Notes under the pieces: model-generated
Told to the model about the DNA's origin: nothing
Seen by the model: the letters and a program-made list of their open reading frames with translations, nothing else
Database searches by the model: none
Translations under genes and position numbers: made by a program
Part shown: piece by piece, positions 3,377-49,180 of the stretch
Position numbering within the stretch: position 1 is the stretch's first letter
How the letters are laid out: each line of letters starts with the position of its first letter
IMG/VR virus record: IMGVR_UViG_3300011189_000401
Location: 1-56,887 of that record
DNA length: 56,887 nucleotides
Reading direction: 5' to 3' (one strand)
Source: a virus
Lineage: Duplodnaviria; Caudoviricetes

Positions 3377-4233
3377 AATTCGTATATCCTCCGTGTGTCG
3401 GCGATCAATTCGCCGATTCTATTCTTTTGCTCCGGCTCCAGTACACGTCGGAAGGTGTAGACAGCCGCCTCAAAATCGTCTAGCGGCTTCCTCAGCGCTT
3501 CCTTGCACTGTTCCTCGACACCCCCACCAAGTGTCTCAAGATTGAGCGTAAAGTTCGGGCATAGCTGCTTGATGGCACACTGTAACCTGTACCAGCCTGT
3601 CAAGCCCCCGAATTTCATATCAAAGTTATGGAAGGGGTGAATACCCTCTCCCATTTCGCGATTGATGATATGAAGATTAGGACATGGAATCAGAAGTCGC
3701 GCCCCGACATCGAATGCATCGATCTTGTTCTTCAGCTGTTGTACGGGGTTTGTTCTAAATAGTTGGTCGACCATTTTACCTAGGTTAACTAGGACGTCGC
3801 GGCCAATGAACTGCGTGGTTTCGAGCACCGGAAGCTCCGTCTCAACGGTCAGCAATCCGATGTTCAGCATGAGCTTGTCTTCCGGTACCTTCTTACCGGC
3901 TGCGTGCTGGACCATGACCCCATAGAAGTGGTCAATCACCCTGAGTTGGTCGATGGTCAACTCTTCGTAGTCGTCGATAAGACGAACGCTCAGCGAGTTG
4001 CTCAGCGTCTCTTCCATTGATTCGAGATGTTCGGGCAGCGACATCCCACCGCCGTCGAACTCATCGGTCTCGATGAGCACATGGATGTCAGACCGCTTCT
4101 CCGGTATCTCACCATAAAAGATAACCTTCGGGTCGCTGTACTTCTCAACAGCGAGTTGACCCAGGTTAATTTCCCGGCGTCTTCTGGTATTGACCAACAT
4201 CTGGAATAGCTCTCTACGCAGTTCCTTTTCCAT
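3373..4233 (-). CDS. hypothetical protein
   Basis: 286-aa ORF in the operon; no motif recognised. Confidence 0.75.
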   Translation of the reverse strand: MEKELRRELFQMLVNTRRRREINLGQLAVEKYSDPKVIFYGEIPEKRSDIHVLIETDEFDGGGMSLPEHLESMEETLSNSLSVRLIDDYEELTIDQLRVIDHFYGVMVQHAAGKKVPEDKLMLNIGLLTVETELPVLETTQFIGRDVLVNLGKMVDQLFRTNPVQQLKNKIDAFDVGARLLIPCPNLHIINREMGEGIHPFHNFDMKFGGLTGWYRLQCAIKQLCPNFTLNLETLGGGVEEQCKEALRKPLDDFEAAVYTFRRVLEPEQKNRIGELIADTRRIYEL

Positions 4234-5924: not shown

Positions 5925-7837
5925 GCCGTCTCCTGAAACTGTCCTCGGAAATTCTTGTTTTCGTGGATGATCGACTCGCCATTCTCCTTGATAACGTGCA
6001 AGTTGGTATGGCCGTGAAAATAGTCGCTCATCGCCTTCTGGTGTCCGACGAAGATCAAGGTCTTGCCCTCGTTTTGTTCGAGGACAAACTCAAGGACGCG
6101 CTGGATGCCAGCGTCGTCCACTCCGTCAACGGCCTCATCGTCGATGATGAAACCGAGGTCCATCATGTTGTTCAGCGCTGTAGCAGCCGCCTTTGAAATC
6201 CTGGCTTTCTCTCCTTTCGAGAAGATGCCGTATGGGAAATACTTTCCCTTCTTGGACACGTTGGTGAAGACCAGTGATAACTCACTACCGTCCTCTCGGA
6301 GTTGACAGTGGTAGTCCCCATCTGTCATCGCATCGAGGCAGACGTTGATGTTCTCTTGAAGATTCAGGATGAACGAGTTGAACCGTGCCGCCTTCGTCTT
6401 CTTCATCGCGTCTTCGAGCGCATCACATGCGTCGATGTCCGTTCCGGCCTGTTCGATGGAATCCTTCAGGTCGTCGCGTACCCCCTGAGCCTCTGAGAGC
6501 GACGCACGCTTGTCCGTGAGGCTGGCCTGAATGTTGGCCGGTGTTTTCTTCTCCGTGCGCTCTACGCGGCTCATGAGAGCGCTGAGGCGCTTGTCGCAGT
6601 CCTTCACGAACTTCTCAGCCCGAACAAACTTGTCCAGCTTGTTCCCCAGCTTGGTGTACCGGGTAAGCTTGTCACGTCCGGCTTCCACCTCGGCCTCCAA
6701 TTCCTCAATCCTGTCGCTCAGGTCTGAAATCTTGGAGTCGAGCGTCGAGATGTCCACCTCGACATCAACCTTCTTGGCTTGATAGGCGTCCACCTTCTTT
6801 TGGTGCTGGTCGACCTTGGCCTCCAGCTTCTTGGAGTCACCAAGCAGGTTGCCGCAGACATCACACTCACCGGTTGGATTCGTGGTGAGGTTATCCAAGT
6901 TCTCCTTAGCCGACTGCATCGCGGCTTCAATCTTGGCCAGCTTATTCTGCTTACTGGTACGCCTCTTCTTCTGAGTGTCACGCTCCCGGCTCAACCGCTT
7001 CACAGCGGTACTCTTGTCTTCGAGCCCGCCGACCTCTTCCTCAAGCTCCCTGAGTTCCTTCTCAACACCCGGCTTCTTCTTTAGAAGCTCCGTGAACTCG
7101 TCTCGCTCATCTCGTTTGTCGGAGATGTCCGACTCAAGCTGTTCGATCTTCTCGGCCTTTTCTTCTTCAAAGGTTTCGAGTTGATTCTTGTAGTTCTGAA
7201 TGTCCTTCTTCGCGGACGCGATCATCTCGTCACGAGCTTGGAGAAGCTTCATGTCGGAACGCCGTTCTGACTCAAGGTCTCGGCGGCGACTACGCACTTC
7301 CTTAATCCACTTGTCATACCGAGCCGTGTTCAGGATCTCGGACACGACCTTGTTCAACTCGGTCGAAGTCAGTGCGACCAGTGGTTTCCGGTCACTGTCT
7401 GAGTAGGCGCAGTAGTACAACACGTCCTTACTCAGCCCCAGCTTCTCTTCGATGAGCTTCGTGGTTTCTCGCTTCGATGTTGCGTGTGTTCTGTCCTCTC
7501 CGTCCACGCTAAGGAAAACGTTGTTGCCTTCCTTGGGGTGGTTGCGAACACGCCGGACAACAACCTCTTGCCCGTCTACGTCAAAAGTCAATTTAACCTC
7601 GGTAAAGTCGTCGAACTCTCCGATGATATCGTCGCGACTCACGTCTTTGCGAAGGATATCCTCGAAGAGCGCCCAGACAAAGGCCGAACAGAACAGGCTC
7701 TTACCCGCTCCATTCGACCCCTGATTCTGCTCGTCCCGGTTGTCCCCGGTGACGAAGTAGACGCCTTGACCCAGGTTAAGTTCCACATCACTTAACAACA
7801 GGTAGTTGTGGATCTTAATCTGCGTCGGTCTAATCAC
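5921..7837 (-). CDS. SbcC/Rad50-like (gp46-like) recombination ATPase
   Basis: Walker A NGAGKS, long coiled coil with CDVC zinc hook, FSKGE signature, IIDDE Walker B, H-loop VGH. Confidence 0.92.
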   Translation of the reverse strand: MIRPTQIKIHNYLLLSDVELNLGQGVYFVTGDNRDEQNQGSNGAGKSLFCSAFVWALFEDILRKDVSRDDIIGEFDDFTEVKLTFDVDGQEVVVRRVRNHPKEGNNVFLSVDGEDRTHATSKRETTKLIEEKLGLSKDVLYYCAYSDSDRKPLVALTSTELNKVVSEILNTARYDKWIKEVRSRRRDLESERRSDMKLLQARDEMIASAKKDIQNYKNQLETFEEEKAEKIEQLESDISDKRDERDEFTELLKKKPGVEKELRELEEEVGGLEDKSTAVKRLSRERDTQKKRRTSKQNKLAKIEAAMQSAKENLDNLTTNPTGECDVCGNLLGDSKKLEAKVDQHQKKVDAYQAKKVDVEVDISTLDSKISDLSDRIEELEAEVEAGRDKLTRYTKLGNKLDKFVRAEKFVKDCDKRLSALMSRVERTEKKTPANIQASLTDKRASLSEAQGVRDDLKDSIEQAGTDIDACDALEDAMKKTKAARFNSFILNLQENINVCLDAMTDGDYHCQLREDGSELSLVFTNVSKKGKYFPYGIFSKGEKARISKAAATALNNMMDLGFIIDDEAVDGVDDAGIQRVLEFVLEQNEGKTLIFVGHQKAMSDYFHGHTNLHVIKENGESIIHENKNFRGQFQETA

Positions 7838-7845
7838 TCTGCCTC

Positions 7846-9700: not shown

Positions 9701-10780
9701 CTAATCACGATTGACTTCCTCAAAAATCTCGACTGCTCTCTTCTGGACCTTGCTGCCAACCTTCGCTCCGACCATCTGGGCTCGGATGAGGTCAACGTCC
9801 TTCTGTCCGTTCTCTTCAATGACATCGACCCGTACTTCCTTATCAGAACTGGATTCACGGGACAGTGGAGCAGTCAAACGATAGAAATGTTCCTTGTAGC
9901 CCTCAACCTCGATACGCTGGTCAGCCGTGGCTTCGCCCGTCACTTTCATGACGGTCTGGCTCATGGCTTCGTCAGTCCAATCGGTGCTGAGAAAGTCGTC
10001 TACGTCCATTTTCCTAATGTTGTACTGAACCGGGTTGTCAAGCGTGTTAAGCTCGTACCCGTCTTCAGTAATCACTAGCTCAGTTGCACTACGTTTGTAA
10101 TGCTCACCGAACTTCAGGTCGAAGGGCGCACCAACGTAATGCGCGTCCTCGTGAACTTCTTGTGCCCGGTGGAAGTCCCCTCCCAGACACAGGTCGAAGT
10201 TGGACGTTATTTCTTGACCTAGGTTAACTCCGCTGGGCGACGGCATGCCGTTGTCCAGCATCGCGTTCTTGGTCGGAAAGTGAAACAGCATGACGTTGTA
10301 CTGAGAGCTATCAGCAATTCGCTCATTGGTCTCAGCAATCTGCCGTTCCAACTCATCGTAGTCTGAGATGTACGGGAAGCAGTGGAAGTCCACGCCTCCA
10401 TGTCTTACCATCCGCTGATTCAGGACAACGTTGACGTTGTCCCCGTGTACCAGTTTGTCCGCTGCGCCAAGCACAGTGAACACGTTCCCTTTGTCGAGAA
10501 CGCAGTGGTTCCCCTCGATGAGCAAGGAGAATTTATCAGTCGCGGCGATACATTTGATCAAGTCGTTACTGTACGTCTGTACAATGGGGTCAAGTGTTGC
10601 TGCGTCGGTCCAATCACCGAGAAACAGCAACCCGTCGTAATCTTCTGTCCTCACCTTCTTGCACAGCCATTGAACAAAGTTGGACTGCGCGACAAGGAGG
10701 TGTGAGACTCCCTGTTTGTTGAGGTAGAACTTCGGGTTGCTGTTCGTCAGGTGAAGGTCGCTAAACACGAGATACTTCAT
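9701..10780 (-). CDS. SbcD/Mre11-like (gp47-like) metallophosphoesterase nuclease
   Basis: SDLH, LGD, GNH, GDFH, YVGAP motifs; partner SbcC-like gene nearby. Confidence 0.9.
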   Translation of the reverse strand: MKYLVFSDLHLTNSNPKFYLNKQGVSHLLVAQSNFVQWLCKKVRTEDYDGLLFLGDWTDAATLDPIVQTYSNDLIKCIAATDKFSLLIEGNHCVLDKGNVFTVLGAADKLVHGDNVNVVLNQRMVRHGGVDFHCFPYISDYDELERQIAETNERIADSSQYNVMLFHFPTKNAMLDNGMPSPSGVNLGQEITSNFDLCLGGDFHRAQEVHEDAHYVGAPFDLKFGEHYKRSATELVITEDGYELNTLDNPVQYNIRKMDVDDFLSTDWTDEAMSQTVMKVTGEATADQRIEVEGYKEHFYRLTAPLSRESSSDKEVRVDVIEENGQKDVDLIRAQMVGAKVGSKVQKRAVEIFEEVNRD

Positions 10781-11982: not shown

Positions 11983-12028
11983 TTTGTCTCCTGTACTTCT
12001 TAACCGGGGTTAACCGGGGGTCACCTGC

Positions 12029-13263: not shown

Positions 13264-13833
13264 CTAGTCTTCCAGCAACCCGGTTGCAATCTCGGCCAAC
13301 TTGCCGTCGACCTCTTCGGGGTCCACCGTTTCGATCTCGGTGGTACCGACGACGAGCATCCCGACCTCGATGGCCGACTCGACGGTCTTCTTGGCCGTCC
13401 ACAGGATGTTCTTGAAGGTCTCGATCTCTGCGATCTTCTCCTTGAACTCATCGTACTCGGGCTGCGAACGCATGTAGGCGTCGATGGCAGCGTTGGTCGT
13501 CTTGCCTCCCTCTTTGACCAGCGGGTTGCGGTCGTCTTTGAGGTTGAGGATTCGACCCTGTTCGGCACGCCAGATACGGAAGGCATCCTCGGTGCGCGAG
13601 CAGTATTCCTCAGCGCTGTACGCGAGGTTACAGATGCCTTGCTTGACCTTCAGTAAGAAGGTGAAGACTTCCGTGGGGTGTTCTTCCACAACCCGAAGGG
13701 TGTCGAGAACTTGACCCAGGTTAATAACGCTCGCTTCTCCGTCTTCGTCGATGACGATCTCAAGGTTTTCCTTGACCGCCTCGGGCATGATGTCTTCCAT
13801 GATCTCTCGTGCTTTCAGTGTGTGTCGACTCAT
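13264..13833 (-). CDS. UvsY-like recombination mediator
   Basis: Helical protein with KTTNAAIDAYMRSQPEY motif; adjacent to SSB and recombinase genes. Confidence 0.55.
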   Translation of the reverse strand: MSRHTLKAREIMEDIMPEAVKENLEIVIDEDGEASVINLGQVLDTLRVVEEHPTEVFTFLLKVKQGICNLAYSAEEYCSRTEDAFRIWRAEQGRILNLKDDRNPLVKEGGKTTNAAIDAYMRSQPEYDEFKEKIAEIETFKNILWTAKKTVESAIEVGMLVVGTTEIETVDPEEVDGKLAEIATGLLED

Positions 13834-17213: not shown

Positions 17214-17410
17214 TCCGTGTCCTTTTTGGCCTCTCGTACAATGCCAACTACGTCTTGCCTGTCGAGGTATGTTGCATACACCCGACAGATTCCGCGAGCC
17301 CTCGAATCACACCGAAGGCACTCGGAGTGGTCGGCCTTATAGAGACCGTCGCTCGGTCGACACTGGAGTTCGTTCGAGTCGGTAGTTGGCTTGCTTTCGT
17401 TCGTACTCAT
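17210..17410 (-). CDS. small Cys-rich protein
   Basis: 66 aa, C...CLRC...C; stop overlaps the dnaE start. Confidence 0.55.
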   Translation of the reverse strand: MSTNESKPTTDSNELQCRPSDGLYKADHSECLRCDSRARGICRVYATYLDRQDVVGIVREAKKDTE

Positions 17411-18308: not shown

Positions 18309-18317
18309 TAACCTCGG

Positions 18318-18671
18318 TTAATTGAGTTCACGTCGAATCTTTTTGGCATCCGGGGTTTCGATGTTGTCCCGGAAGTATTTCGTCACGTCTTCTTCCAACG
18401 AGTCCACAGCGGTGTAGAACCCGGCGGAATCGTCGTCGTCCTCAGCTGCCTCCAGCTTCAGACGGTCGATAACACCGATTCCATCGGGGAAGTCGACATA
18501 GGCTTCGATCACAAGGAGTCGAATCTCCCCTTTGTAGTAGCCCTCGATGATGTCGCCCTCGACCTTGTCGCCACCCTCGTACATAACGAAAGCCATGTGG
18601 GGTAGCGCTGAGTCCAGCTGGACCTTGAGGTCTTCCATGCTCGTCTGCTCTTGTTCGCCTTCGTCTTCCAT
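18318..18671 (-). CDS. hypothetical acidic protein
   Basis: 117-aa ORF with GGAG RBS. Confidence 0.7.
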   Translation of the reverse strand: MEDEGEQEQTSMEDLKVQLDSALPHMAFVMYEGGDKVEGDIIEGYYKGEIRLLVIEAYVDFPDGIGVIDRLKLEAAEDDDDSAGFYTAVDSLEEDVTKYFRDNIETPDAKKIRRELN

Positions 18672-22980: not shown

Positions 22981-22993
22981 CCGTTAACCTCGG

Positions 22994-28641: not shown

Positions 28642-28661
28642 AACTTCTCCATTAACCTGGG

Positions 28662-37000: not shown

Positions 37001-38842
37001 GGTACCTGCATCAAGATCCAGAACCTTGTAAGCCAACTCACTCGACCGATTCTCCCAGACGTTGTAATCGTCCATCGCCTCGTAGATAAGAGCGACGTTC
37101 CCGTCTAGCGTCTCAACTGCTGCCAGACTGTCACTCCTGAGAGATACATCCAGCGCGCCTCCCATGTACGGTGTCATCGTGTTGTTGCAACGATCGTGAT
37201 GGAACACCACTAGCTCAGCCCTGTACTCCTTGACCTCGAAGAACATCTTGTGGTCTCGAAGACCTTCTGAGTAGTTGCCTTCACCCTCGGGGGTCGCCGA
37301 TGCTGACTCATCGCTGTCGTACCGACTGAGCATGTCAGGCATCGCTGACAGCATGTGGGAGCCTGCTGAACTCCAGAACACCTTGGCATCCGCGTTGGAC
37401 ACGGTGTAGTAATAAACACCCTTGTCCAGTGTTCTGCTGGCAGGAGCAGATGATCCAGTCGGGTCTGAATCTATCACAGCGCCCGTATCAGCACGCCCAA
37501 GCTCCCATGCGGGATCTTCCGAGCTAATAGGGTTGAACCCGAAGTAAATCTGTCTGGACTCAAGGGGCGTGTAGAGCACTCCGTAATAGACCCTATCACC
37601 GCTGTCCATCTCCAGCGTTCTCAGAAACTTGATGGTCCTGTCAGACGTGAACGAGGTACCCAGGTCGTGACTGATACGGCTGAAGTCAAAGTTCTCACCG
37701 TATTGCCTGACACTACCGTAGCCGTCGTTGAGAGCTTCTTCAACGATGAACTCCATCTTCTCGTCGCCCCGCCTCGGAGACGACGCCCTGCCAACACCTT
37801 TGCCACCGGTTGCCTCGACGAAGAGCTTGCTGTCATCCATAGCTGAGCCGTCACATACACACTCGTTGTGCATCTTGACGTTGCCATTGAAGTATTCAGC
37901 CTCTTCGCCAAATTCCTTACATCTGAGATCCGACTGAGCGTCGTCATACAGTTCCTCTACAGGTGATACCGCGAACCTCAGCGGGTCTTCGCCGATAGGG
38001 AGGTCTGTGAATTCGACCTCTGCGGTAGCGGTATCGGTTTGACCTAGGTTAACACCGGTTCCCCATAGGGTCGCCTCCATCGTTCCGGGGTAGGCCGGAA
38101 ACACGTCGTAGTAAAGAGTGGTGCCTACCGATGATGCGAACACCGGAGCCGTGGACGCGTTTCTGGAAGGTAAGTCCAAGTAAGGGATAGCCCTGAACAT
38201 ACCCAGCCTTATCTTTACCTCAGCGCTAGACTGAATGGCCAGCGCAGCATTCATCTGTGTGGCTGTGAATTTAGCTTCAAAAGCCTTGGTAAACTCACCA
38301 TCCTTAACGAACCCGGCCACAAAGTTGCCGCCACCCTTGATGACGATGCGACAATCAAAGCCTGGATCGTCTGAGTAGAAGGTCTTAGTGGTGTTACCCC
38401 CTGCTTCCTCGAACTGGACCCTGAGTTCATACTGGCTTAGATCCATGTCATAGGAGGCTCGGAATTCCAGCCTCTCACCAAACCCTCCTTCATCGAGGGT
38501 AAAGTTTGCATATATGTCGGTGCCACTACTAACACTTATGGGCTCATAGGCCCCCAGATACATGCTAAGCTCTTGACGGTCGTCCTGCACGTTGTAAGCC
38601 GTAGGATACTGCCAAACGGCTGAGTCTAAGCCTCCGTGCGTCTGAAGGTGAAATAGACCACCTCCAAGGGAAGCTACCGTGCCAGATTGCGATGAGAGGT
38701 CAAAGACCCCTTGGTTCGCTACATCCACAAATTCAGTGTCATGGGATCGATCATGTAGTTCCTGATCACTGGTCACCTTGATGTGACCGCCATCAATAGG
38801 AACGATGTTCGTTGTCGGGTAAACCTGACTGCGTACTTTCAT
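34007..38842 (-). CDS. large tail-tip/distal tail protein
   Basis: 1611 aa immediately downstream of the tape measure gene; AAGGAGG RBS. Confidence 0.6.
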   Translation of the reverse strand: MKVRSQVYPTTNIVPIDGGHIKVTSDQELHDRSHDTEFVDVANQGVFDLSSQSGTVASLGGGLFHLQTHGGLDSAVWQYPTAYNVQDDRQELSMYLGAYEPISVSSGTDIYANFTLDEGGFGERLEFRASYDMDLSQYELRVQFEEAGGNTTKTFYSDDPGFDCRIVIKGGGNFVAGFVKDGEFTKAFEAKFTATQMNAALAIQSSAEVKIRLGMFRAIPYLDLPSRNASTAPVFASSVGTTLYYDVFPAYPGTMEATLWGTGVNLGQTDTATAEVEFTDLPIGEDPLRFAVSPVEELYDDAQSDLRCKEFGEEAEYFNGNVKMHNECVCDGSAMDDSKLFVEATGGKGVGRASSPRRGDEKMEFIVEEALNDGYGSVRQYGENFDFSRISHDLGTSFTSDRTIKFLRTLEMDSGDRVYYGVLYTPLESRQIYFGFNPISSEDPAWELGRADTGAVIDSDPTGSSAPASRTLDKGVYYYTVSNADAKVFWSSAGSHMLSAMPDMLSRYDSDESASATPEGEGNYSEGLRDHKMFFEVKEYRAELVVFHHDRCNNTMTPYMGGALDVSLRSDSLAAVETLDGNVALIYEAMDDYNVWENRSSELAYKVLDLDAGTFSARESLRFPSYIVEYSAGINAFDAVRIEDNVHFILTPEFDEKKAWSPDLSSEPLTFAAKLTTEGADMSGFEFKTGRDTIYSPVSSSFIQSTSGAEALTNLYHHGYSMDELFTESYINSSMDHPTHPASFPYLRAQYDESRDEVLVAMLNQRNRAPMIISGSGSEWREVALPRHFDFYSGGIRNVGHDAQKYTHLKSLSACYGADGMIYSLAVRGVYPTAPADFPPRTSELAVIDPAVEEPLVYIPNTGSDRWEGANFGDSRGTTAVNGDYARFSGHLYRFQTLPVWNAYQQADGGGLGIESAHLTLDDGYLVATLGTEDPRPGDAIKRYPLIYQSCMQDEAPFGVPLDEVWLPEYEDDTDYLVEHVDGPYPDTWHSARIENGYNDGVDIHQAKVSRKLDAVSERMHKAPTGYRFSARLQREGDETYFANNFIFEATAVKEWEPDLHTEARCRMVYNGKQVDCRVGDGDGGWTSVGTLCGLGASDIRDFHIVVQHHDNAQDRGRRFRAIFFVKTNEHANRSQGVHAYDFRTKAVSKRGTGVAQTIGAPGADHATEFACFFDNSTVDNTDAVLLHEMGWGLLRTPGLLSEVIGFDESFANGEQNNGEAVGVGGEIVLDGEKWRDFNDVKLFSHSGQEPVYSYRVSEGRQGSKVSDTYHWPNGFEFFFSGEVSSDSDRWMLDRKVLSNTHDIQTDRVHGYYTTLTDDTPVHIWADAQDSGLETFEADTFIITGANVPEVTIVGKNNIGDNWTDVDTLDLRKYETGNLLTPVNYPSVNRSIIKIDRADFEEGRFSEFVHYLGGTDPLSANKAGKIASSFSSTIWVDTNADYKFEGERAEIFADRGALVLDNPVGYRYLGIRIDPYHTHEGKFKLHSFDFGRSSSVPLKYGHDAGTGASQEAETEVNFVFDEQPYTPKKYSLRKEFELEYSLTDAKTLSKLQSVVKEVGVSRKAVWVLENNGAYKEKVYQCFIEDGATYTPLLDDDGERYYKFEMTLRSSE

Positions 38843-38865
38843 TTATCCTCCTTAACCCAGGTTAA

Positions 38866-41900: not shown

Positions 41901-44900
41901 CCGACGTAGGTGTCAAGGGCCTTCTCAGCCTCTTTGACCTCACCTGCGTCAAGGTAACGGGAGAGCTGCCCTTGCGAGCGGTCCAGCTTGAACTGGCGCA
42001 GCTCCCTCAGCCGGTCGTTGACCTTCTCCTGCTCCCTTCTGTACTCTCGGGCTCGATTGGCAACTGTCGCCATCGCGCCATCGAGTTGACCCAGGTTAAC
42101 TCGTCCGCTCCTGACTCCAGCCACGAAGTCATTGACTGCACCCTCGGCATCACCCATCGTCGAAACGATGTCTCTACCAAGTGACTCTGACATCTGACCA
42201 ATAACCCCCATCCTATCGAAGTCCAGGGAGTCGGTCAGGGTGTCATTGATTACGTCTGCGAGTTCATCTGCTTGGCCACCGAGGTGTTCAGACAGCTTCT
42301 CATAGAGATCGATCCGGTTGTCAACGTGTTCGTTGATCTCCTTCTCAGTCTCCTTAGTCTCTTCAGCCAATTTGTTGAATTCCTCCCATACCTTCAGCAC
42401 TTGGTTGTCCAACCGGATCATCTCCGACTGATACTGAGCCATGCTGATACGGTGTTCTTCAGACTTCGCTGTCAACTGCTCTTGACGCAAGACCCTCATC
42501 TTCTCGATGTGGTTGATCTTACGGGCCCAGCCAAGAACCTTGTACTGGACGCCAGCGTGCTTGACCTGTGGATTGAGGATCTTCTCAGTGAGTTCAAGGT
42601 TCTCGAACAACATCTCGTTCTCTTCGCGCACAGCACTGAGTGCCTTGTAGCGAAGCGCGATCAGATCGTTCTGAAGCCCCTTAATCTCCTGAAGCCCTTC
42701 TATGCTAAGGAGGTATTCACTCGCCCTCATGTCGCCATGCGGGCCATTCTTGACGACCTCGTTGAGATCGTCCTGCTTAGCGATAAGCTTCTCGGTCGCC
42801 TTCAATTCTTCGAGGCGAGCGTCCACTGTTTCGTCAAGCTGCCTTGCTTCCTCGGTTACAAGCGACAGGTTTCCTTTCAGATTCCTGTTGGTGATACCGA
42901 TCTGAGTGTTCTTCTCCTGAATAGCATTGATCCCGGCTTGGATCTGGAGAAAGATATTCTTGGCAACCTCGTACTCGTCGGCGGAAAGTTCCGCGTTCTT
43001 TCTGCGGATTTCAAGAAGCTCGAAGCCAGCCTCTAGGGACTTGTCGAACTCTTCCATCGCAAAGTCTGTAGAGTCAGGCGAGAAGTCGAAATTGAGGTCA
43101 TCGATCTTCTTCTGCAAGTCTTCGTTTCCGAGACCTATATCACCGCGAAGCAGTTGCTCCTGTCTCAACTCTTCCCATTTCATATACTGCTTAGCAAGAG
43201 AGTTGAGGGTCTTCTGACGCTTCGCAGCATCATCCATCAGGTCGATGTATTCCCTGAAAATATCATTTCGCCTTTGGTCCAGCATCGTGGTGATCTGGTC
43301 GTTCTGAATCGCATTACGAAGATCCTTGACCTGATCTGCCGTATCACTGACGCCCTGCCCTGCCTTGCTTGCGGCCTCAGAAAATATCTCCGTAAACTCC
43401 CCTAGGCCCTGCATATTGACATTAAACAGACCGGAGTTCTTAGCCATTCTCCCCATGTCGTCAGCTATGTCAGCCGCGTTGTCGGAAGAATCAATCAAGT
43501 TGGCTGAAACGCCTTGTGTAACCTCGACAAGCTCAGAAGCGACAGCTTCGTCGCTCATGTCCTCGACTGCACTCCTGCTGTCTTGGAACGGCTTCATGGC
43601 TTCTTTCAGGATAGGCGTCTTGACGTTCGCCTCCCTGATTCCACGAAGGATCGCACGCTGTGTATTGATCCCCAGCGCCTTCGCTTGATCCCCCATCGTC
43701 TTCTGCAACGCTGGAACATCCATGAGCATCGTGGCCTCGGAATGGATGTCAGCCGAGTCCATAGTAATGAAGTCCCCAAGAACTTTCTCCGTGTCCTTGA
43801 TATCTTCTTTTAGTTCGTTCAACTCATGGCGAATCCTCATGAAGTTCTTCATGGGGACAGGGGCATCCATGATGTCGAACAGCTTGTTGAGCAACGCAGA
43901 TGTTTCACGAACAGGGTCAACTTCGAGCGTCTTCATGACATTGAAGTTGACACCCTCCATCGTCTCAGCAATGCGCAGGATGTTTTCGTGGACTTCCTTG
44001 ACATTGAAGAGCAACCCGTCAACTCCTTCGACGGTGGCCATCTCTTCCACGTTGAAGTACAGCGCGTCTTCAAGCTCTTTTCTAGCTCTTACGACCTCAG
44101 CCGCAGTCTTGCCGCCAACATTATTTAGCAGGCCATTAAGGCGCGCGCTGTACTCTTCCTCCATACCTCTTGCGAGGTCATCGAGCAGACCATCATTCAA
44201 CAATTTCTGAATCTGCTTGCCATGAGTCTTCCATTCCTTGTTGGCCTTATCGCTGACAAGGTTACCAGACGCAGTGATACGCAGATCTCCGACCTTCTTG
44301 ATGTTATCGAGGCTCATCTTCAGCACCTCGATTTTGTCCTGCACATCTTCTATAGGTCGGTCATCCCAGATGTCAGCCCACTCAGCAGCGAAGCTATTCG
44401 CCGCTTCGGACAGCGTGAAGAAAACACTGCTAATCACCCCTTCCTGAGCTTTGAATGCCGAACGCTGCTTACCAAACTGGCGGTCTAACATCTGAGCAGA
44501 TAGACTGATCAGCTTGTCGTTGCTCTCTAGGATGTCACTGTTGATGTTGTTTACTCGCTTGCCTACCTCAACCCGGACCTGCTCATAAATCCTGGGCAAT
44601 TCATTGACAAGGTCTTCATCCGACATCGTCAGAACTTCGTTCTCCATCGAGAGTTCAGCACCGGAATTCTTGAACAGGTCTCTCACTTTATCAGCGGCGA
44701 CACTGGTCTCAGTGCTGAACAACCTCACCTCATCATTGATACTGCCAAGATCCTTCCTGAATTTCTCAAGCTCGTTAGTCTTGGTTGTCATCTTGGCGAT
44801 AGATGCAGCCGTCTCATCAAAGGACTCTTGCATGTCCTCAATTGAGTCGACCATATAGCCAATCGCAGCCACAAGCCCAATCATAGCGACTGCGATGAGC

Positions 44901-47900
44901 CCAACAGCTCCCGCAGACAAGCCCTTGCTAGCAACAGCGGCTCCACCAGTTCTTGAGGCTGCGGCCCTAGCACTGGCTAACTCACTCTCACTCGCGGCAG
45001 CGATTCTAGCCGCCTGAGCTTCTGATAGGTGAGCCTTGGCGTGCCTTTCGGTGACCGCAGCGGATACAAGCAGTGAGTCAATATTAGCGTTTACCGACCT
45101 CTCATGAGTGAAGAGAGCGGCAGTGGAGGTGATGACTGAGCTAACAGCATTCTTCATGGACGTGAACAGAGTTCCGAACACCATGATTAGTGCGCCGATA
45201 CCCTGTGTTAATACGATAGCAGCGCCTCCCCATACAACGAAGTTGGAAATGAGCTTATCCAGCCCAAGCATATCCATCGCCTCTTGGAACTGTTGCAAGG
45301 CATGAGTAATAGAGATCAAGGCTTCTTTAGCAGGATCTAGCCCGTTTCTCATGAACTCAAGCAAAACCTGCTTTGCAGACTCAAACTTTCTTGCAAGCGT
45401 TTCTTTGACGTTCTCAGAAAGGTTCCTGCTTAGACCAGCGGAATCGTCCCTGAGTTCAGTGATAGTGGATTTCACATCGTCTACGTTGCCAGCCAAGACC
45501 TCGAAAGCCTTAGCACCACGCAGTCCGAACAATGAGAAGCTTGCGTTCAAGTCCCTAAGCGTCGTCTCTCCACTTCTCAGCTTCTTGTTGACCTCTTCCA
45601 AGACCGCGAGAAACTGCTTGTCGAGACTCATGTTGGGATCAACTTCAACGTCAAGAGCCTCTTTGAACTGACCAGTCTTAGCAGCGAACTGTGCGAACAC
45701 GCGCTGCAAGGTACGACCAGCCTGACCGCTCTTGATCATGTTGTCGTTCAGGACGGCGAGAAACGCCGAAAGTTCCTCAAACTGGAAGCCTGCAACTTTA
45801 CCAGTTGCGGCAACAAATTTGAGACCCTGAGTCATCTCATCAAGCTCCGCCTGATGGTTCCGGTAGACGGAGGTAAGAACGTCGGAGATACGATTCATCT
45901 TCTGGAGCTTCGATGTCGCGTTGTCCATCGAATCGCCGAAGACGTTGTACATACCAGCCATCGACCGAGTCGTGGCTTCAGCGTCTGCCGACGTGGTTGT
46001 GATGAGTCGCATAGCAGCGTCGAGACCGGCCATTGACTCTTCGAGAGTCAGACCAGCTGAGCCGAACTGTTTGACGACCTCGGCAACTTCCTCAGTTGCC
46101 TCACCGAACTCAATTGCGGTCTCACGAACCCGCGTCTTAACCTCGGTTAACATTTCCTCGAAGTCCTTCGAGGCAGATCGAGCAACAGTCATCACACGAG
46201 CGTATGCGCGACTCTCTTCAAGGATCTCCATGAAACCCATCGACAGACCCATGAGGCCAGCCATGATGAGGGACATAGAGTTGATGAACTTAAAGTTGTT
46301 GCGCACAGAATCAGCAAGCTCCATGCGGTAGAGGCGGAACCCCTTACCGGCGCGCTTGGCCGACTTCTCTACTTTATCAAGGGCGTAACGAGACTTGTCT
46401 ACTCTAGCACCCATCTTACTGAATGCCTTGTTGAGCCTGAGAGCTTGCCTTAGCAGCTTGCTCTCTACCTTGGTCAAATCCTTGCCCTCTCTTTTCATCT
46501 GACGGAAGGTATGGACAACGTAGGCCGTCTTGTCACGCATCTCTTTTGCGTTGCCACCCAGCTTTTTCATCTTCTGGGCACCAACGAGGGCAGCATTGCC
46601 GCCTTGGTCGATAGCCTTGTCGGCCATGTTCATCTCACGGCGCATGCGCGTGATCTGATTCGAGAATTTCGTAATGTCAGATTCAGCATTCTCGAAATCC
46701 TTACCCATAGCGCGAATACTGCCGCGCTTCATGCTAGCTTGCCCGCCAAGCCCACCCACTAGTTGTTTCCTAGCGTTGCGAACTCTCTTTAGTGCGACCT
46801 CTGCCTTGCGGCCAGCTTCAGTAGAGCTTCCACCCATGCGGATGAACTCTTGTTCAAGCTCTTCGATGCTATTCGACAGGCGCTTATAGTCCTTGTCGAT
46901 GTCCTTGGCCGAACGCGCAGCACGCTTGTAGGCACCTGCGGTGTCTATTGTCGCTTCGCCAAGGATCTTCTGGCGAGCGATGAGTTCCTTGGTTTTATTC
47001 TCTACTTTCTTGAGCTTGTCAGAAGCCTTAGCCATCTCGTCGAAGGCGTTGGCTTTCTTTTCAAGGGCGTTCACAGCGCCACCTTTCGACAGCGTGTGCT
47101 CAAGGCCCTTCGCCTCACGGCGGGTGTGCTGGATCTGCTGATCGATCGACTTGTACAGCGACTCGATCATCTCCAGCTTGCGAGCCTCTTTTCCAGACTC
47201 GTCCAGACCCGCGAAGTTGCCGCCGCCGCTAGCTGCTTCAGCTTCGATGGCGCGCTTCCCAATGATCTTTTCTTTCTGGAGCCGAGCAATAGTCGACTGA
47301 GTCTTTTTGAGATCCGACTGGAACCTCTTGATGAGGTCACGGGACTCCAAAAGGGTAGCCTTGTCGAAGATCCCCTCTCGGGTGCGCTTCTGAAGCGCCT
47401 CAAGGGCTTCCTCATTTGTGTCAATCGAGAGATGGAGCTTCTGGTAGTCTCGACGACCTTTCTGAAGCTCGTTGTAGTACGTCTTCAACACGTCACGGTT
47501 TGCCCTGTACTGTTGCTTCTGCTTGTTCAGGGTGGCCAGCGATCGCTCAAGGCTGTGCTCATCCTTCTTGTTCACCTTGATCGACTTCTCGACTTCCTTG
47601 CGACGCTTGTCGATTGCCTTGATCTCAGTCTTGATGGCAGCAATGCGCTTCATGCCCTCTCTGTTGGGCTTGATATTCTGCGCCTGAACCTCCAACTGGT
47701 CGCGACTATTCTTGAGTTGCTTAGACTCATTTTTGAGAGCCCGGACTTGGTCGCGAATCTCGTTGATACCAGACGCAACCCGAGTTCCAGTACGCTCGAT
47801 CGATTTACCAAATGCCTCCATTGAGTGGAGGTCTTGGTTCTTCATCGCCTTGGCTAGTTCTCTACCAGCCTTGGCACTGGTATCACCCAGCTCTTGGAGC

Positions 47901-49180
47901 AAGCCCCTAGCGCGCTTGTCAACACTGATTTGACGCTCGGTGTTCTCGGTCCTCAACTCGATACGCTTAGCCAGTAGCTCGGTAAGCTCAGCGGTCTTGC
48001 GAAGTTCCTGTTGCTGCTTCTTTTCAGGACTGCTTTTCAAATCTCCTTCGAGATCTTGCTTGACCTTCTCCAAGTCCTTGTAGGTTCCGGGATTCTTTTT
48101 GACAACATTTCGCTTCTTCCCGATCTCACTTTGTGCATCCTTGAATGCGCCACCGGGAGCGACCTGCTGCATTGCTCTCTTTTCCAGAGCCAGGATCTTC
48201 TTTAGCTCCTGACGACGACGCTCTAGGGATTTAACCACCTTGTCAGATTGGTTTTTGACGCGCTTCTCTTCCTTGGCAAGATGCTCAACAGCAATGCGTT
48301 GCTTCTTGAGTTCTGAATCTTTCTCAACAGTAGAGTTTTTAATAGCAGCCTTGCGCATCTCTTCATAGCCTTCCTTGGCCTGCTTTAACTCCTTCTGGAT
48401 GTGGTCAAGGCTGTTGCTTTTAATCTCCTTGTTAACCTTGGTTAATTGCTTCTCAGTCTTGCTAACACTGCTGCTGAGATTATCCCAGGTCTTAGTCCAC
48501 TGTCTCGCCTCATTGAATGCAGACTTGTTGGACCGCATTTCCATCTCAACTTCTTCAAGCTCAGCCTCGGTCTTTTTGATAGCCGCGTTGACCTTGCGAA
48601 GCTCAGTGACACCGACGTCACCAACTTCTTTAAGCTGCTTCTGAATCTTCTGGAGGTGAGCAAGAGATCCGCGCTCGATTCCCTTGGTCGAGAACCCTTC
48701 CATGCCGTCAGCGTTCTTGCGGACACCATCGGCGTCGAGATCAGGAGACCCCTTGCCACCACCAGCGCCGCCGCCACTCTTGGACGCCTTGCTGAACTTC
48801 TTACCGGCCTGAGTTGCGTCCTGCTCAAACTGTTGACCGAGCCCCTTCATCCGTTTTTCCATCTTATCAAGCGCCTCTTGAAAGGCACCTACTAAGACGT
48901 TCTCGATCTGTTTGCCGTCGTCTTGGAGCTTCAACTTGACGTTCGAGTTCGCAGCCAAGGTCTTCGACAGACGGTCGATGGCTTGATTGAACATGCCGAT
49001 CAACTTCCTGAACGATTCGAGGCTACTCTTGTCGAACTTGATGTCACCGTCGAAGTCAACCGACTTCAACGCCTTGTCCACTTGGTCAACAACTTTGCCC
49101 AGCTTCTCGGCAACCTTGTTGATGCCCTGTACTTCCTTTACAACTACTTCAACGCCAATCTTGATATTGCTGTTTGCCAT
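38903..49180 (-). CDS. tail tape measure protein
   Basis: 3425 aa helical/coiled coil; TP901-type core (ETAIEFG...ELSAFLAVLNDNMIKSGQAGRTL), hydrophobic segments, C-terminal FHEGG/EGVL motifs; follows the chaperone genes. Confidence 0.92.
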   Translation of the reverse strand: MANSNIKIGVEVVVKEVQGINKVAEKLGKVVDQVDKALKSVDFDGDIKFDKSSLESFRKLIGMFNQAIDRLSKTLAANSNVKLKLQDDGKQIENVLVGAFQEALDKMEKRMKGLGQQFEQDATQAGKKFSKASKSGGGAGGGKGSPDLDADGVRKNADGMEGFSTKGIERGSLAHLQKIQKQLKEVGDVGVTELRKVNAAIKKTEAELEEVEMEMRSNKSAFNEARQWTKTWDNLSSSVSKTEKQLTKVNKEIKSNSLDHIQKELKQAKEGYEEMRKAAIKNSTVEKDSELKKQRIAVEHLAKEEKRVKNQSDKVVKSLERRRQELKKILALEKRAMQQVAPGGAFKDAQSEIGKKRNVVKKNPGTYKDLEKVKQDLEGDLKSSPEKKQQQELRKTAELTELLAKRIELRTENTERQISVDKRARGLLQELGDTSAKAGRELAKAMKNQDLHSMEAFGKSIERTGTRVASGINEIRDQVRALKNESKQLKNSRDQLEVQAQNIKPNREGMKRIAAIKTEIKAIDKRRKEVEKSIKVNKKDEHSLERSLATLNKQKQQYRANRDVLKTYYNELQKGRRDYQKLHLSIDTNEEALEALQKRTREGIFDKATLLESRDLIKRFQSDLKKTQSTIARLQKEKIIGKRAIEAEAASGGGNFAGLDESGKEARKLEMIESLYKSIDQQIQHTRREAKGLEHTLSKGGAVNALEKKANAFDEMAKASDKLKKVENKTKELIARQKILGEATIDTAGAYKRAARSAKDIDKDYKRLSNSIEELEQEFIRMGGSSTEAGRKAEVALKRVRNARKQLVGGLGGQASMKRGSIRAMGKDFENAESDITKFSNQITRMRREMNMADKAIDQGGNAALVGAQKMKKLGGNAKEMRDKTAYVVHTFRQMKREGKDLTKVESKLLRQALRLNKAFSKMGARVDKSRYALDKVEKSAKRAGKGFRLYRMELADSVRNNFKFINSMSLIMAGLMGLSMGFMEILEESRAYARVMTVARSASKDFEEMLTEVKTRVRETAIEFGEATEEVAEVVKQFGSAGLTLEESMAGLDAAMRLITTTSADAEATTRSMAGMYNVFGDSMDNATSKLQKMNRISDVLTSVYRNHQAELDEMTQGLKFVAATGKVAGFQFEELSAFLAVLNDNMIKSGQAGRTLQRVFAQFAAKTGQFKEALDVEVDPNMSLDKQFLAVLEEVNKKLRSGETTLRDLNASFSLFGLRGAKAFEVLAGNVDDVKSTITELRDDSAGLSRNLSENVKETLARKFESAKQVLLEFMRNGLDPAKEALISITHALQQFQEAMDMLGLDKLISNFVVWGGAAIVLTQGIGALIMVFGTLFTSMKNAVSSVITSTAALFTHERSVNANIDSLLVSAAVTERHAKAHLSEAQAARIAAASESELASARAAASRTGGAAVASKGLSAGAVGLIAVAMIGLVAAIGYMVDSIEDMQESFDETAASIAKMTTKTNELEKFRKDLGSINDEVRLFSTETSVAADKVRDLFKNSGAELSMENEVLTMSDEDLVNELPRIYEQVRVEVGKRVNNINSDILESNDKLISLSAQMLDRQFGKQRSAFKAQEGVISSVFFTLSEAANSFAAEWADIWDDRPIEDVQDKIEVLKMSLDNIKKVGDLRITASGNLVSDKANKEWKTHGKQIQKLLNDGLLDDLARGMEEEYSARLNGLLNNVGGKTAAEVVRARKELEDALYFNVEEMATVEGVDGLLFNVKEVHENILRIAETMEGVNFNVMKTLEVDPVRETSALLNKLFDIMDAPVPMKNFMRIRHELNELKEDIKDTEKVLGDFITMDSADIHSEATMLMDVPALQKTMGDQAKALGINTQRAILRGIREANVKTPILKEAMKPFQDSRSAVEDMSDEAVASELVEVTQGVSANLIDSSDNAADIADDMGRMAKNSGLFNVNMQGLGEFTEIFSEAASKAGQGVSDTADQVKDLRNAIQNDQITTMLDQRRNDIFREYIDLMDDAAKRQKTLNSLAKQYMKWEELRQEQLLRGDIGLGNEDLQKKIDDLNFDFSPDSTDFAMEEFDKSLEAGFELLEIRRKNAELSADEYEVAKNIFLQIQAGINAIQEKNTQIGITNRNLKGNLSLVTEEARQLDETVDARLEELKATEKLIAKQDDLNEVVKNGPHGDMRASEYLLSIEGLQEIKGLQNDLIALRYKALSAVREENEMLFENLELTEKILNPQVKHAGVQYKVLGWARKINHIEKMRVLRQEQLTAKSEEHRISMAQYQSEMIRLDNQVLKVWEEFNKLAEETKETEKEINEHVDNRIDLYEKLSEHLGGQADELADVINDTLTDSLDFDRMGVIGQMSESLGRDIVSTMGDAEGAVNDFVAGVRSGRVNLGQLDGAMATVANRAREYRREQEKVNDRLRELRQFKLDRSQGQLSRYLDAGEVKEAEKALDTYVGTAQKLYKDSPTALTGSLEWATKAAERLAELQVSTSKKKYKMVFDDEGLQAIKMLLDVIDDKVKEIGDRQLSFLPDGITDPKKFAQEIRKNLEGEGMDIFRNAEGRASVRNDHLSNIDSNIQRIANEVTSRDGRAMAGMTEASKASKEVSGTGESAKALEKNLDDMGATSEKASKAMKEVEKTTKSLSDVAKTTKPQDVDRELTDKVRGIEADAAKAVIGWQMGVAAMEAGRGKALQDRGSDVIDNSFVWQSLQEGMEMFTKNAGETLSSFFDSVFVPEFAKANAEVYEQYIEQLENIRVQYKRNVSTAIDGLQRNESTYYSYLNSIMDAEKQRQQSILDAQKQYRESLKKTKDVIKEQFGEAFKQVFNAKAVSSIMGQFTQGLFGAPDLETSLNQFAGALDVASDRLIEAGTDFLKGKLTEMGMDLSESASRTFDELRPELKKSLTDMFSDDVEGDIGLKMAKEQMTKGFLDSLPDEAFIQNEFALRTYEILDSATSVFGSAFAAAASSMAGMLTTGISRIVEMTLSGDADRMRVFYLKFIEELPRAIEEFTNEFSENFETMIEAISDNLPEIVDSFIEAFPEVISGIITALEDSLPKIVETLAGALPRIVEQVFPLIIDFFLLIIEQVPTILGSITGVIPTLIAQLLAKLPEIIIVVIKAVFESIIDIIVGLFSNGPAGGIVTIALAMAGMMYAWEGATESAISSEATKAELLNFQRVNLQMERDNAIEMRSTLEQIQAQQTGQVASSAKNASQTIDEAKKGTRRAAQGAEQGARASEGAMQAAVSAVGIAMAGINLIQAMASDAPTGEKVGSVIGTIVGGVGGALVGGLQGGSIGAGLGGMLGRGIGGIFHEGGMIGGNEEEQLILAQKGEGVLSRSGMRALGGRGALDALNSGKLDFAKLQELQGVPVYHDGGVVGDKSATSSYDPKSVTRSGGTNNEYVDNSTYTVNMKVEGGSSGNRREDKKYAREMATEIDKQLAKMKEDRKSRLAKSMKDD

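What the first reader, a model, noticed from the sequence alone, without database searches (positions are those of the whole stretch)
3775..48445. The palindrome imprints itself on proteins and deviates where it would create a stop codon
Seen: in the frame NTT AAC CNN GGT TAA the perfect motif ends in a stop. All eight intragenic copies I found in this frame change that T to give CAA or AAA. This yields xNLGQ in six unrelated proteins (4156, 7766, 10214, 13711, 38039, 42086), VNLGK (3775) and LNRGK (20970). In the stop-free frame TTA ACC NNG GTT AAN, four copies are perfect (LTEVK at 32164 and 46137, LTPVN at 34692, LTKVN at 48432) and three carry one mismatch (FTEVK 7593, FTQVK 15220, LIEVN 24851), using AT-ending codons that look uncommon here. 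Inference: selection acts on the DNA site strongly enough to shape protein sequence, and position 3/12 of the site tolerates G or T.
Basis: partly seen in the sequence, partly recalled or inferred. Interest (0 to 1): 0.8.

Follow-up and report, generated by a model that had tools for sequence, protein, structure and literature searches.

The report
Evenly spaced palindrome written into phage genes
An uncultured lake phage keeps one 14-base palindrome about every 2.3 kb along its DNA, bending codons and even amino acids to carry it inside genes, which points to an unidentified DNA-binding protein that works across the whole genome.

Summary
TTAACCNNGGTTAA occurs 13 times perfectly and 11 times with one mismatch; shuffles give 0 and 0.03.

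The DNA drives the peptides:
- All 8 of 8 [FLIV]N[LPHQR]G[QK] and 6 of 6 [LF]TxV[KN] peptides in the 40 ORFs are motif-encoded.
- Shuffled proteins give 0.31 and 0.86 such peptides.
- Codon usage alone would yield 0.33 sites in the 15 peptides.

New here:
There the motif's first TAA is the stop codon of five genes.
- The sites are evenly spaced (CV 0.49, P about 2e-4).
- A distant relative (DnaE 41% identical) has none of this motif. It has 29 evenly spaced copies of another 14-mer, TTAAGYTARCTTAA, which holds a stop in all three frames.
- All 11 intragenic copies I could read there deviate in their in-frame stop triplet.
- Three of ten lie within 16 nt of a window site.

Best reading: docking sites for an unidentified dimeric DNA-binding protein. 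The nearest published case is the unexplained Cluster O 17-bp repeat. This scan noted similar arrays before, on unrelated phage DNA.

The parts
244..257 (.). perfect site, non-coding, about 50 nt upstream of an SD and ATG of a gene that runs off the window
623..636 (.). perfect site; its TAA (positions 2-4, coding strand) is the stop codon of the RNR gene 633-3152
3775..3788 (-). intragenic (286-aa ORF), stop frame, T12>A, VNLGK
4156..4169 (-). intragenic (286-aa ORF), stop frame, T12>C, INLGQ
7593..7606 (-). intragenic (SbcC-like), stop-free frame, A3>T, FTEVK; 16 nt from the G002 site in the orthologue
7766..7779 (-). intragenic (SbcC-like, aa 20), stop frame, T12>C, LNLGQ
10214..10227 (-). 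intragenic (SbcD-like), stop frame, T12>C, VNLGQ
12000..12013 (.). perfect site between the 375-aa ORF and the UvsX-like gene, with an overlapping 2-mismatch copy at 12010-12023; G002 has a site at the same junction
13711..13724 (-). intragenic (189-aa ORF), stop frame, T12>C, INLGQ; polymorphic in two lake runs (13723 A>G, synonymous, adds a second mismatch)
15220..15233 (-). intragenic (DnaE-like polymerase, aa 661), stop-free frame, A3>T, FTQVK
18308..18321 (.). perfect site; supplies the stop of the 117-aa ORF and abuts the start of the next gene
20970..20983 (-). intragenic (DnaB-like), stop frame, T12>A, LNRGK; 15 nt from the G002 site in the orthologue
22984..22997 (.). perfect site; supplies the stop of the 128-aa ORF upstream of the DnaC-like gene; G002 has a site on the stop of the orthologous 128-aa gene
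24851..24864 (-). codons 3-7 of the helicase ORF as called, C5>T, LIEVN (would be intergenic if the true start lies downstream)
28652..28665 (.). perfect site; supplies the stop of the 1782-aa ORF, 10 nt before the next ATG
32164..32177 (-). perfect intragenic site (1782-aa ORF), stop-free frame, LTEVK with the rare TTA codon
34692..34705 (-). perfect intragenic site (1611-aa ORF), LTPVN
38039..38052 (-). intragenic (1611-aa ORF, aa 264), stop frame, T12>C, VNLGQ; 10 nt (alignment-mapped) from a G002 site
38852..38865 (.). perfect intergenic site directly after a GC-rich hairpin and directly before GGAGG and the ATG of the 1611-aa ORF
42086..42099 (-). intragenic (3425-aa tape measure), stop frame, T12>C, VNLGQ
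46137..46150 (-). perfect intragenic site (tape measure), LTEVK
48432..48445 (-). perfect intragenic site (tape measure), LTKVN
50978..50991 (.). perfect intergenic site just after the only strong intrinsic terminator (51026-50999) and 7 nt before a 19-nt element
55189..55202 (.). perfect site; supplies the stop of the 169-aa ORF, directly before GGAGG and the GTG of the next gene

Best explanation
The 14-bp palindrome is a signal read on double-stranded DNA. Most likely it is the docking site of a dimeric, sequence-specific DNA-binding protein, with two 6-bp half-sites (TTAACC) and a free 2-bp spacer. The phage keeps a site roughly every 2.3 kb, and never more than about 4.2 kb apart, along all of its known genome.

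At a gene junction the site is kept perfect, and its TAA often doubles as the upstream gene's stop codon. Inside a gene the coding sequence is bent to carry it: rare codons are used and particular amino acids are imposed. Whichever triplet of the palindrome would be an in-frame stop takes one substitution, nearly always at half-site position 3, the least important one.

Shown: the array, its even spacing, the codon and peptide imprint, and the same architecture with a different motif in a distant relative. Inferred: that a protein binds it. The binder and the purpose are not known. My order of preference is genome-wide transcription roadblock or silencing, then loading sites for a spreading or organising protein, then replication or recombination start sites.
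For: Excess over chance: 13 perfect and 24 copies with at most 1 mismatch, against 0 and 0.03 in shuffles.

Full sites, not half-sites: 16 of 20 TTAACC and 21 of 23 GGTTAA lie inside full sites. No copies exist with spacers of 0, 1 or 3.

Even spacing:
- Window: 24 sites, CV 0.49 against 0.96 at random, P about 2e-4; largest gap 4211 against a random mean of 8676, P about 1e-4.
- Window plus the 8.9 kb that near-identical contig G001 adds (terminase, portal, head genes): 29 sites, mean gap 2285, CV 0.48, P = 5e-5.

Codon and peptide imprint.

Independent replicate. G002 is syntenic, with 16 orthologue pairs at 20-41% identity.
- It has 0 copies of the window motif, and the window has 0 of G002's.
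- It has 29 sites of TTWAGYTARCTWAA with at most 1 mismatch; the reversed control gives 0.
- Mean gap 2365, CV 0.47, reached in 0 of 20000 random placements.
- In the 33.5 kb I could read, 14 sites: 11 intragenic, each deviating in its own in-frame stop triplet; 2 supply a gene's stop codon; 1 is intergenic.

Shared places. 3 of 10 intragenic G002 sites map within 10-16 nt of a window site; the null mean is 0.17, P = 1.5e-4. Two gene junctions are also shared.

Not a hairpin.
- RNA folds of the sites give 0 to -3.5 kcal/mol for 23 of 24 (one at -7.7 with its flanks). Five of the 8 position-12 variants do not fold at all, and none of the 8 forms the palindrome's own hairpin.
- G002 half-sites assort independently: positions 6 and 9 are complementary in only 5 of 15 exact sites (my count).
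- Stop avoidance uses the internal position 12, never the terminal position 14.
Against: No binder was found.
- Pfam and PHROGs give no DNA-binding domain in the window's unknown ORFs.
- ParB_N, HTH_3 and Trans_reg_C are absent from the three fragments, which are only 37-48% complete.

A pure spacing rule does not explain everything.
- 13 of 21 junctions with at least 9 nt of spare DNA lack a site.
- Site 7766 sits 58 nt inside SbcC, next to a free 75-nt gap.
- Three pairs of sites lie only 173-381 nt apart.

No sign of purifying selection among strains, although the test has little power.
- 15 of 15 shared sites are identical in G001, but G001 is 99.3-99.7% identical overall.
- Site 13711 carries a synonymous change that adds a second mismatch in 2 of 4 lake runs.

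The co-location test assumes uniform placement. Proteins may offer only a few permissive spots, which would inflate its significance.

Not all non-coding copies are perfect: G001 5028 and 8613, and G002 50418, each carry one mismatch.
Confidence: 0.62

Rival explanations
1. The sites are targets of a site-specific nickase or nuclease, or start points for recombination-dependent replication or primosome loading. This would resemble the fixed nicks of T5-like and some Pseudomonas phages (recalled, no call).
For: Spacing is even and no long stretch lacks a site. The phage carries its own DnaE, DnaB, DnaC-like loader, primase, UvsX, SbcCD and RuvC. In both phages a site sits on the stop codon of the 128-aa gene just upstream of the helicase loader. 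That protein has weak leads to DnaD-type replisome organisers: Atlas score 0.94 to a Phg_2220_C cluster, and VIA Z 5.6 to a DnaD domain, which is within the noise.
Against: Known nick consensus sequences are asymmetric and strand-specific (recalled). A palindrome cut by a dimer would break both strands. Only contigs were available, so read ends could not be examined: table 6 is empty and uninformative. The fold matches are not above background.
Confidence: 0.13
2. The sites are bound by a host regulator that the phage exploits, for example a CtrA-like cell-cycle regulator that recognises TTAA repeats.
For: Both phages' motifs share the skeleton TTAA-N6-TTAA. No phage-encoded binder was found. 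Phages of Alphaproteobacteria are known to carry CtrA boxes (PMC9437464; passages read).
Against: The CtrA box is TTAA-N7-TTAA, and in phages it clusters in one intergenic gap or in terminal repeats (PMC9437464). Here the spacing is N6, there are 0 N7 copies in the window, and the sites are spread evenly. The inner six bases are strictly conserved within each phage and differ between the two relatives. That fits a co-evolving phage protein better than a conserved host factor.
Confidence: 0.1
3. The motif acts in the mRNA as a small hairpin, for processing, termination or translational coupling between neighbouring genes.
For: All genes are on one strand, so every copy is transcribed in the same sense. 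Junction copies lie between the stop codon and the Shine-Dalgarno sequence, 0-18 nt from the next start. Two follow hairpins or terminators.
Against: 15 of 24 copies are inside ORFs, including three in one 10-kb gene. The hairpins are marginal, and the 8 position-12 variants lose the palindrome's own hairpin (5 of them do not fold at all). Sequence, not pairing, is conserved. G002 half-sites are non-complementary in 10 of 15 exact sites. There is no Rfam match.
Confidence: 0.08
4. The copies are relics of a mobile or mutational process (insertion footprints, miniature elements) and have no function.
For: The TTAA ends recall target-site duplications (recalled, no call).
Against: 14 nt is not a multiple of three, so in-frame insertion is impossible. 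The spacing is far more even than random. The codon choices run against genome usage. A relative has the same architecture with a different motif.
Confidence: 0.03

Closest known systems
17-bp dyad repeat of Cluster O mycobacteriophages, 5'-TGTTCGGNNNCCGAACA (PMC4351075; section 8 read in full)
   Same: A short perfect inverted repeat with a free spacer. It occurs 34 times in one phage genome, both between and inside genes (14 intergenic, about 10 near 5' ends, about 10 deep in genes). The authors read it as a site for a dimeric protein of unknown role, with a transcriptional role judged unlikely.
   Different: The sequence, phage lineage and host are unrelated. That paper does not analyse spacing, reading frames, stop-codon avoidance or motif change between distant relatives. 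Here the motif also supplies stop codons.
Stoperators of Cluster A mycobacteriophages, L5 gp71-type repressor (PMC9283540; passages read)
   Same: More than twenty copies of one short site spread through the phage genome, many in short intergenic spaces. They act on DNA to stop elongating RNA polymerase.
   Different: Stoperators are asymmetric 13-mers bound by a monomer and work in one orientation only. Here the site is a palindrome, 15 of 24 copies are inside genes, and no repressor or sign of lysogeny was seen in the fragments.
KorB (ParB-CTPase) operators on plasmid RK2 (PMC11790492; search listing and start of abstract only)
   Same: Palindromic sites dispersed over a mobile genome, from which a clamp acts over kilobases. 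A site every few kb would let such a clamp cover the whole genome.
   Different: No ParB_N domain is present in the window, G001 or G002, though these are under half of each genome. The similarity of the G002 half-site TTWAGY to the KorB operator half-site is recalled from memory, not tested.
DNA uptake sequences of Haemophilus and Neisseria and their imprint on proteomes (PMC2817400; abstract read)
   Same: A DNA-level signal accumulates in coding regions, raises the frequency of the peptides it specifies, shows reading-frame preferences, and sits at poorly conserved residues.
   Different: Those are asymmetric signals with hundreds to thousands of copies, serve DNA uptake in bacteria and are not evenly spaced. 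Peptide enrichment there is about 2-fold; here it is 7- to 25-fold.

Membership tests
Phage genome-wide dyad-repeat arrays (Cluster O type) | one short inverted repeat with a variable spacer, tens of copies per genome | tested here: met
   24 copies in 56.9 kb and 29 in 65.7 kb with the G001 extension
Phage genome-wide dyad-repeat arrays (Cluster O type) | copies both between and inside genes, across all modules | tested here: met
   9 junction or non-coding and 15 intragenic copies, from terminase to RNR
Phage genome-wide dyad-repeat arrays (Cluster O type) | same sequence (TGTTCGGNNNCCGAACA) or related phage lineage | tested here: not met
   Different motif. No near relative in GenBank phages; DnaE under 32% identical. 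An analogue, not a relative.
Stoperators (Cluster A mycobacteriophages) | asymmetric site whose orientation follows the direction of transcription | tested here: not met
   The site is a perfect palindrome. The central NN bias is explained by codons and SD.
Stoperators (Cluster A mycobacteriophages) | L5 gp71-type immunity repressor encoded by the phage | not tested
   No specific search was made. General Pfam and PHROGs scans of the window's ORFs gave no repressor.
ParB/KorB-type site arrays | phage or plasmid encodes a ParB_N (CTPase) protein | tested here: inconclusive
   0 of 3 fragments match PF02195, but CheckV completeness is only 37-48%
ParB/KorB-type site arrays | 13-16 bp palindromic sites dispersed over the replicon | tested here: met
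CtrA boxes in phage genomes | TTAA-N7-TTAA spacing | tested here: not met
   14 TTAA-N6-TTAA and 0 TTAA-N7-TTAA in the window
CtrA boxes in phage genomes | sites clustered in one intergenic gap or in terminal repeats | tested here: not met
   Sites are more even than random. The published pattern is from PMC9437464.
RNA hairpin element (terminator or processing site) | stable stem kept by compensatory change | tested here: not met
   Energies are 0 to -3.5 kcal/mol for 23 of 24 sites. The position-12 variants lose the palindrome's hairpin. G002 half-sites are non-complementary in 10 of 15. No Rfam family matches.
Uptake-sequence-like imprint on proteins (analogy for the imprint only) | motif-specified peptides enriched, and encoded by motif codons | tested here: met
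   8 against 0.31 and 6 against 0.86. 14 of 14 peptides are motif-encoded. 15 sites observed against 0.33 expected from codon usage.

The most novel reading that the evidence does not exclude
A lineage of large lake phages carries an ancient genome 'ruler': about 60 docking sites per genome, at about 2.3-kb intervals, for a phage protein still unknown. The protein's specificity has co-evolved with all its sites (TTAACC half-site in one branch, TTAAGY in the other), while the spacing and several site positions were kept. This would mean an essential, undescribed genome-wide function, such as organised loading of a spreading clamp, replication or recombination entry points, or whole-genome transcription gating. 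It would not be ordinary operator control.
Probability: 0.3. Interest if true: 0.8.

Novelty: new variant of a known kind. Interest (0 to 1): 0.62.

Why it matters
Dispersed palindrome arrays have been seen in phage genomes, for example in Cluster O mycobacteriophages, and left unexplained. This case adds three things that make the problem tractable.

1. There is quantitative proof that the DNA site outranks codon preference and, in part, protein sequence.
2. There is a natural replicate. A distant relative changed the motif but kept the 14-bp length, the TTAA ends, the tolerant position, the 2.3-kb spacing and some positions.
3. There is a clear search image for the binder: a protein present in both phages whose DNA-reading residues differ.

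If the binder is found, it would define a genome-wide control or organisation system in uncultured large phages. It would also give annotators a rule: stop codons and odd peptides can be by-products of DNA signals.

Tried and rejected
Relatives.
- megablast of 20 kb against GenBank phages found none.
- DnaE tblastn gave only hits under 32% identity.
- Single-protein scans of viral contigs with P0011 and P0003 found nothing.
- The lineage-specific alignment A2 found only the two known contigs, and nothing in genome contigs.
- P0014 in genome contigs returned DnaE at about 30% identity, mostly from Patescibacteria MAGs.
- The contigs that hold P0002-P0018 could not be fetched.

Binder.
- No ParB_N, HTH_3 or Trans_reg_C was found.
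- The 128-aa protein was folded (pLDDT 82.8, all-alpha). It has no Foldseek match at E of 0.001 or better. VIA best Z is 7.5 to a ribosomal protein, and 5.6 to a DnaD domain, all within the background for helical models.
- The PDB phmmer hits to designer PPR proteins have 0 significant stretches. I take them as a repeat artefact.
- The 375-aa and 189-aa ORFs have no PDB relatives.

Expression and DNA ends.
- No RNA holder is listed among the sequencing runs, and all 22 runs are kept as contigs.
- Laying four runs gave no read-end information. The runs are mostly over 99% identical, so there is too little variation to test conservation of the sites.

Other.
- Sigma-70-like promoters and terminators are not enriched. 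Only one strong terminator was found.
- There are no tRNAs and no Rfam families.
- GTTAACNNGTTAAC in locus L126 is a local 8-bp tandem repeat, not an array.
- No paper in the library holds the motif strings. A search for evenly spaced palindromic sites in phage genomes listed 12 of 57 matching papers, and none of the 12 describes this pattern.
- Supplementary files of papers were not consulted.

Full report
WHAT THE WINDOW IS

The record is the whole window: one contig of 56,887 bases. By my own ORF calls, all of about 40 ORFs are on the minus strand and cover 97% of it. PHROGs names these genes, from high to low coordinates:
- holin and spanin-like genes
- a minor tail protein
- a 3425-aa tape measure protein
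- three giant ORFs of unknown function (1611, 1782 and 1224 aa)
- a helicase
- a DnaC-like loader
- DnaB
- a methyltransferase
- a primase
- a deoxyribosyltransferase/guanylate-kinase fusion
- a DnaE-type polymerase
- UvsX, SbcD and SbcC
- a RuvC-like protein
- ribonucleotide reductase

It is a fragment of a large tailed phage, with a CheckV completeness estimate of 41%. GenBank phages hold no near relative. Near-identical DNA occurs in lake and salt-lake metagenome runs.

THE OBSERVATION

TTAACCNNGGTTAA occurs 13 times perfectly and 24 times with at most one mismatch.

On the coding strand the 15 fully intragenic copies fall into two frames.
- Seven are in the stop-free frame (TTA ACC NNG GTT AAN). 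Four of these are perfect.
- Eight are in the frame that would end in TAA. All eight are changed at position 12: six to CAA and two to AAA.

In xxT TAA ..., the TAA at positions 2-4 is the actual stop codon of five genes (sites 623, 18308, 22984, 28652, 55189). The nine copies that are not fully inside ORFs are all perfect. They sit between the stop codon and the Shine-Dalgarno sequence of the next gene, or overlap them.

DOES THE DNA SHAPE THE PROTEIN?

Yes.
- TTA is the rarest Leu codon (3.4%), yet all four LTxV[KN] peptides use it. All 8 of 8 [FLIV]N[LPHQR]G[QK] and 6 of 6 [LF]TxV[KN] peptides in the ORF set are encoded by the motif.
- Residue-shuffled proteins give 0.31 and 0.86 such peptides.
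- Given the 15 peptides, genome codon usage would produce a site with at most one mismatch in 0.33 of them, not 15.
- The peptides are not conserved. In 18 DnaE relatives the FTQVK stretch varies, and the 79%-identical protein has FTDIK, which cannot encode the site.
- Against the syntenic relative G002, I count about 13 of 45 site-encoded residues as identical. That is no more than the proteins overall (20-41%).
- One nuance: the DnaB site reused a partly conserved peptide, LNRGK against LNRRR.

The statement that copies deviate where a stop would arise is partly true by definition. What carries information is the position chosen. Of seven possible sense substitutions, only those at position 12 are used, in 8 of 8 copies. 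Ten of all eleven single mismatches lie at position 3 or its mirror position 12.

THE ARRAY

Half-sites hardly exist outside full sites: 16 of 20 TTAACC and 21 of 23 GGTTAA are inside them. Other spacer lengths do not occur.

The 24 sites are much more evenly spaced than random placement:
- CV 0.49 against 0.96, P about 2e-4
- largest gap 4211 against a random mean of 8676, P about 1e-4

An IMG/VR contig, G001, is 99.3-99.7% identical to the window and extends 8.9 kb beyond it, through the major head, portal and terminase genes. All 15 sites shared with G001 are present there, and there are five more. One of these is an intragenic copy in the third frame, changed TAA>AAA at position 2. One is changed TAA>TTA at position 13. 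One supplies the portal gene's stop codon.

The merged array has 29 sites, a mean gap of 2285 and a CV of 0.48, P = 5e-5.

AN INDEPENDENT REPLICATE

The only other relative I could fetch is G002: 67 kb, GC 44%, DnaE 41% identical, 16 syntenic orthologue pairs. It has no copy of the window motif, and the window has none of G002's.

G002 does have 29 sites of TTWAGYTARCTWAA with at most one mismatch, against 0 for the reversed control. The mean gap is 2365 and the CV 0.47, reached in 0 of 20000 random placements.

Its ideal form, TTAAGYTARCTTAA, has the same 14-bp length, the same TTAA ends and the same tolerant position 3/12. It contains a stop codon in all three frames.

I could read 33.5 kb of G002, holding 14 sites:
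- Eleven are intragenic, and each deviates exactly in its in-frame stop triplet. One changes TAR>TAC at position 9. Five change TAA>AAA at position 12. One changes TAA>TCA at position 13. Three change TAA>TTA at position 3. One changes TAA>GAA at position 2.
- Two supply a gene's stop codon.
- One is intergenic.

Three of the ten intragenic G002 sites that lie in alignable orthologues map within 10-16 nt of a window site. These are in DnaB, SbcC and the 1611/1621-aa protein. The null mean is 0.17, P = 1.5e-4. This test assumes uniform placement, so the significance may be overstated. Two junction sites are also shared: the stop of the 128-aa gene before the DnaC-like gene, and the junction before UvsX.

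DNA OR RNA?

The evidence favours DNA.
- The RNA hairpins are marginal, at 0 to -3.5 kcal/mol for 23 of 24 sites. Five of the eight position-12 variants do not fold at all, and none of the eight forms the palindrome's own hairpin.
- Stop avoidance never uses the terminal position 14, which would hurt a stem least.
- In G002 the two half-sites assort independently. They are complementary at positions 6 and 9 in only 5 of 15 exact sites (my count).
- No Rfam family matches.

This points to recognition of two half-sites on duplex DNA by a dimer.

WHAT IT DOES

This part is inference. The density, one site per 2.3 kb, resembles that of the published arrays. Cluster O has 34 sites per genome (PMC4351075, section 8 read). 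L5 has more than twenty stoperators (PMC9283540, passages read).

The palindrome rules out membership of the stoperator family, which is asymmetric, monomer-bound and orientation-dependent. The CtrA box is excluded by its spacing (N7, against N6 here) and by its clustered distribution. A ParB/KorB-like clamp remains possible. However, no ParB_N, HTH_3 or Trans_reg_C domain is encoded in the three fragments, each under half a genome.

The 128-aa protein has a stop codon that carries a site in both phages. It folds confidently as an all-alpha domain but matches nothing above background. The DnaD/Phg_2220_C leads are weak.

WHAT DOES NOT FIT A SIMPLE SPACING RULE
- 13 of 21 junctions with spare DNA lack a site, while sites lie inside genes close by.
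- Three pairs of sites are only 173-381 nt apart.
- One site (13711) carries a synonymous second mismatch in two of four lake runs.

VERDICT

The feature is a further, well-documented case of the known but unexplained kind 'phage-wide palindrome array'.

The following aspects appear to be new, as far as the searches and the papers I read go:
- use and avoidance of the motif's stop codons in all three frames
- statistically even spacing
- a motif switch between relatives, with spacing and some positions kept

Earlier notes of this scan report similar evenly spaced arrays on unrelated phage DNA.

Noticed in passing
window 24927-24945 and 50952-50970 (minus strand): A 19-nt element occurs exactly twice (18 of 19 bases identical between the copies). 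Both copies are in intergenic DNA at the start of a gene module: one before the helicase gene, one after the only strong terminator and before the tail genes. Each has a palindrome site nearby (63 nt downstream and 7 nt upstream). It may be a promoter or regulatory box.
   Followed up: partly
window 56785-56841: Six overlapping copies of a 9-bp tandem unit (a Lys/Asp-rich coding repeat) lie at the window's end. The alignment to the near-identical contig G001 stops inside it at 56820, so the contig end is probably an assembly break at a variable repeat.
   Followed up: partly
window 22994-23380 and G002 40834-41220: A conserved 128-aa protein (33% identical between the two phages) sits directly upstream of the DnaC-like loader. 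Its stop codon is supplied by a palindrome site in both phages. The model is confident and all-alpha (pLDDT 82.8), without a clear structural relative. Leads to DnaD/Phg_2220_C-type replisome organisers are weak.
   Followed up: partly
window 38903-49180: The tape measure protein has 3425 residues, which predicts an unusually long tail. It is followed by three giant ORFs (1611, 1782 and 1224 aa) with no family match. The 1224-aa ORF is the best conserved against G002 (31% identity, E = 2e-115).
   Followed up: no
window 299-619: The 106-aa ORF called here is very Arg-rich and looks spurious. The region 1-298 holds an SD plus ATG of a gene that runs off the window's low end.
   Followed up: no
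G002 62496-62509: One G002 site is a hybrid. One half-site is of the G002 type and the other is GGTTAA, the half-site of the window's motif.
   Followed up: no
window 17337-18308 and 20081-20722: A fused nucleoside 2-deoxyribosyltransferase/guanylate-kinase-like gene and a DNA methyltransferase lie in the replication module. This may hint at nucleotide or DNA modification.
   Followed up: no
L126 13777-13808 and 15200-15240: An unrelated metagenome contig fetched through DnaE carries two short tandem runs of an 8-bp unit containing GTTAAC. This is a local repeat, not a genome-wide array.
   Followed up: yes
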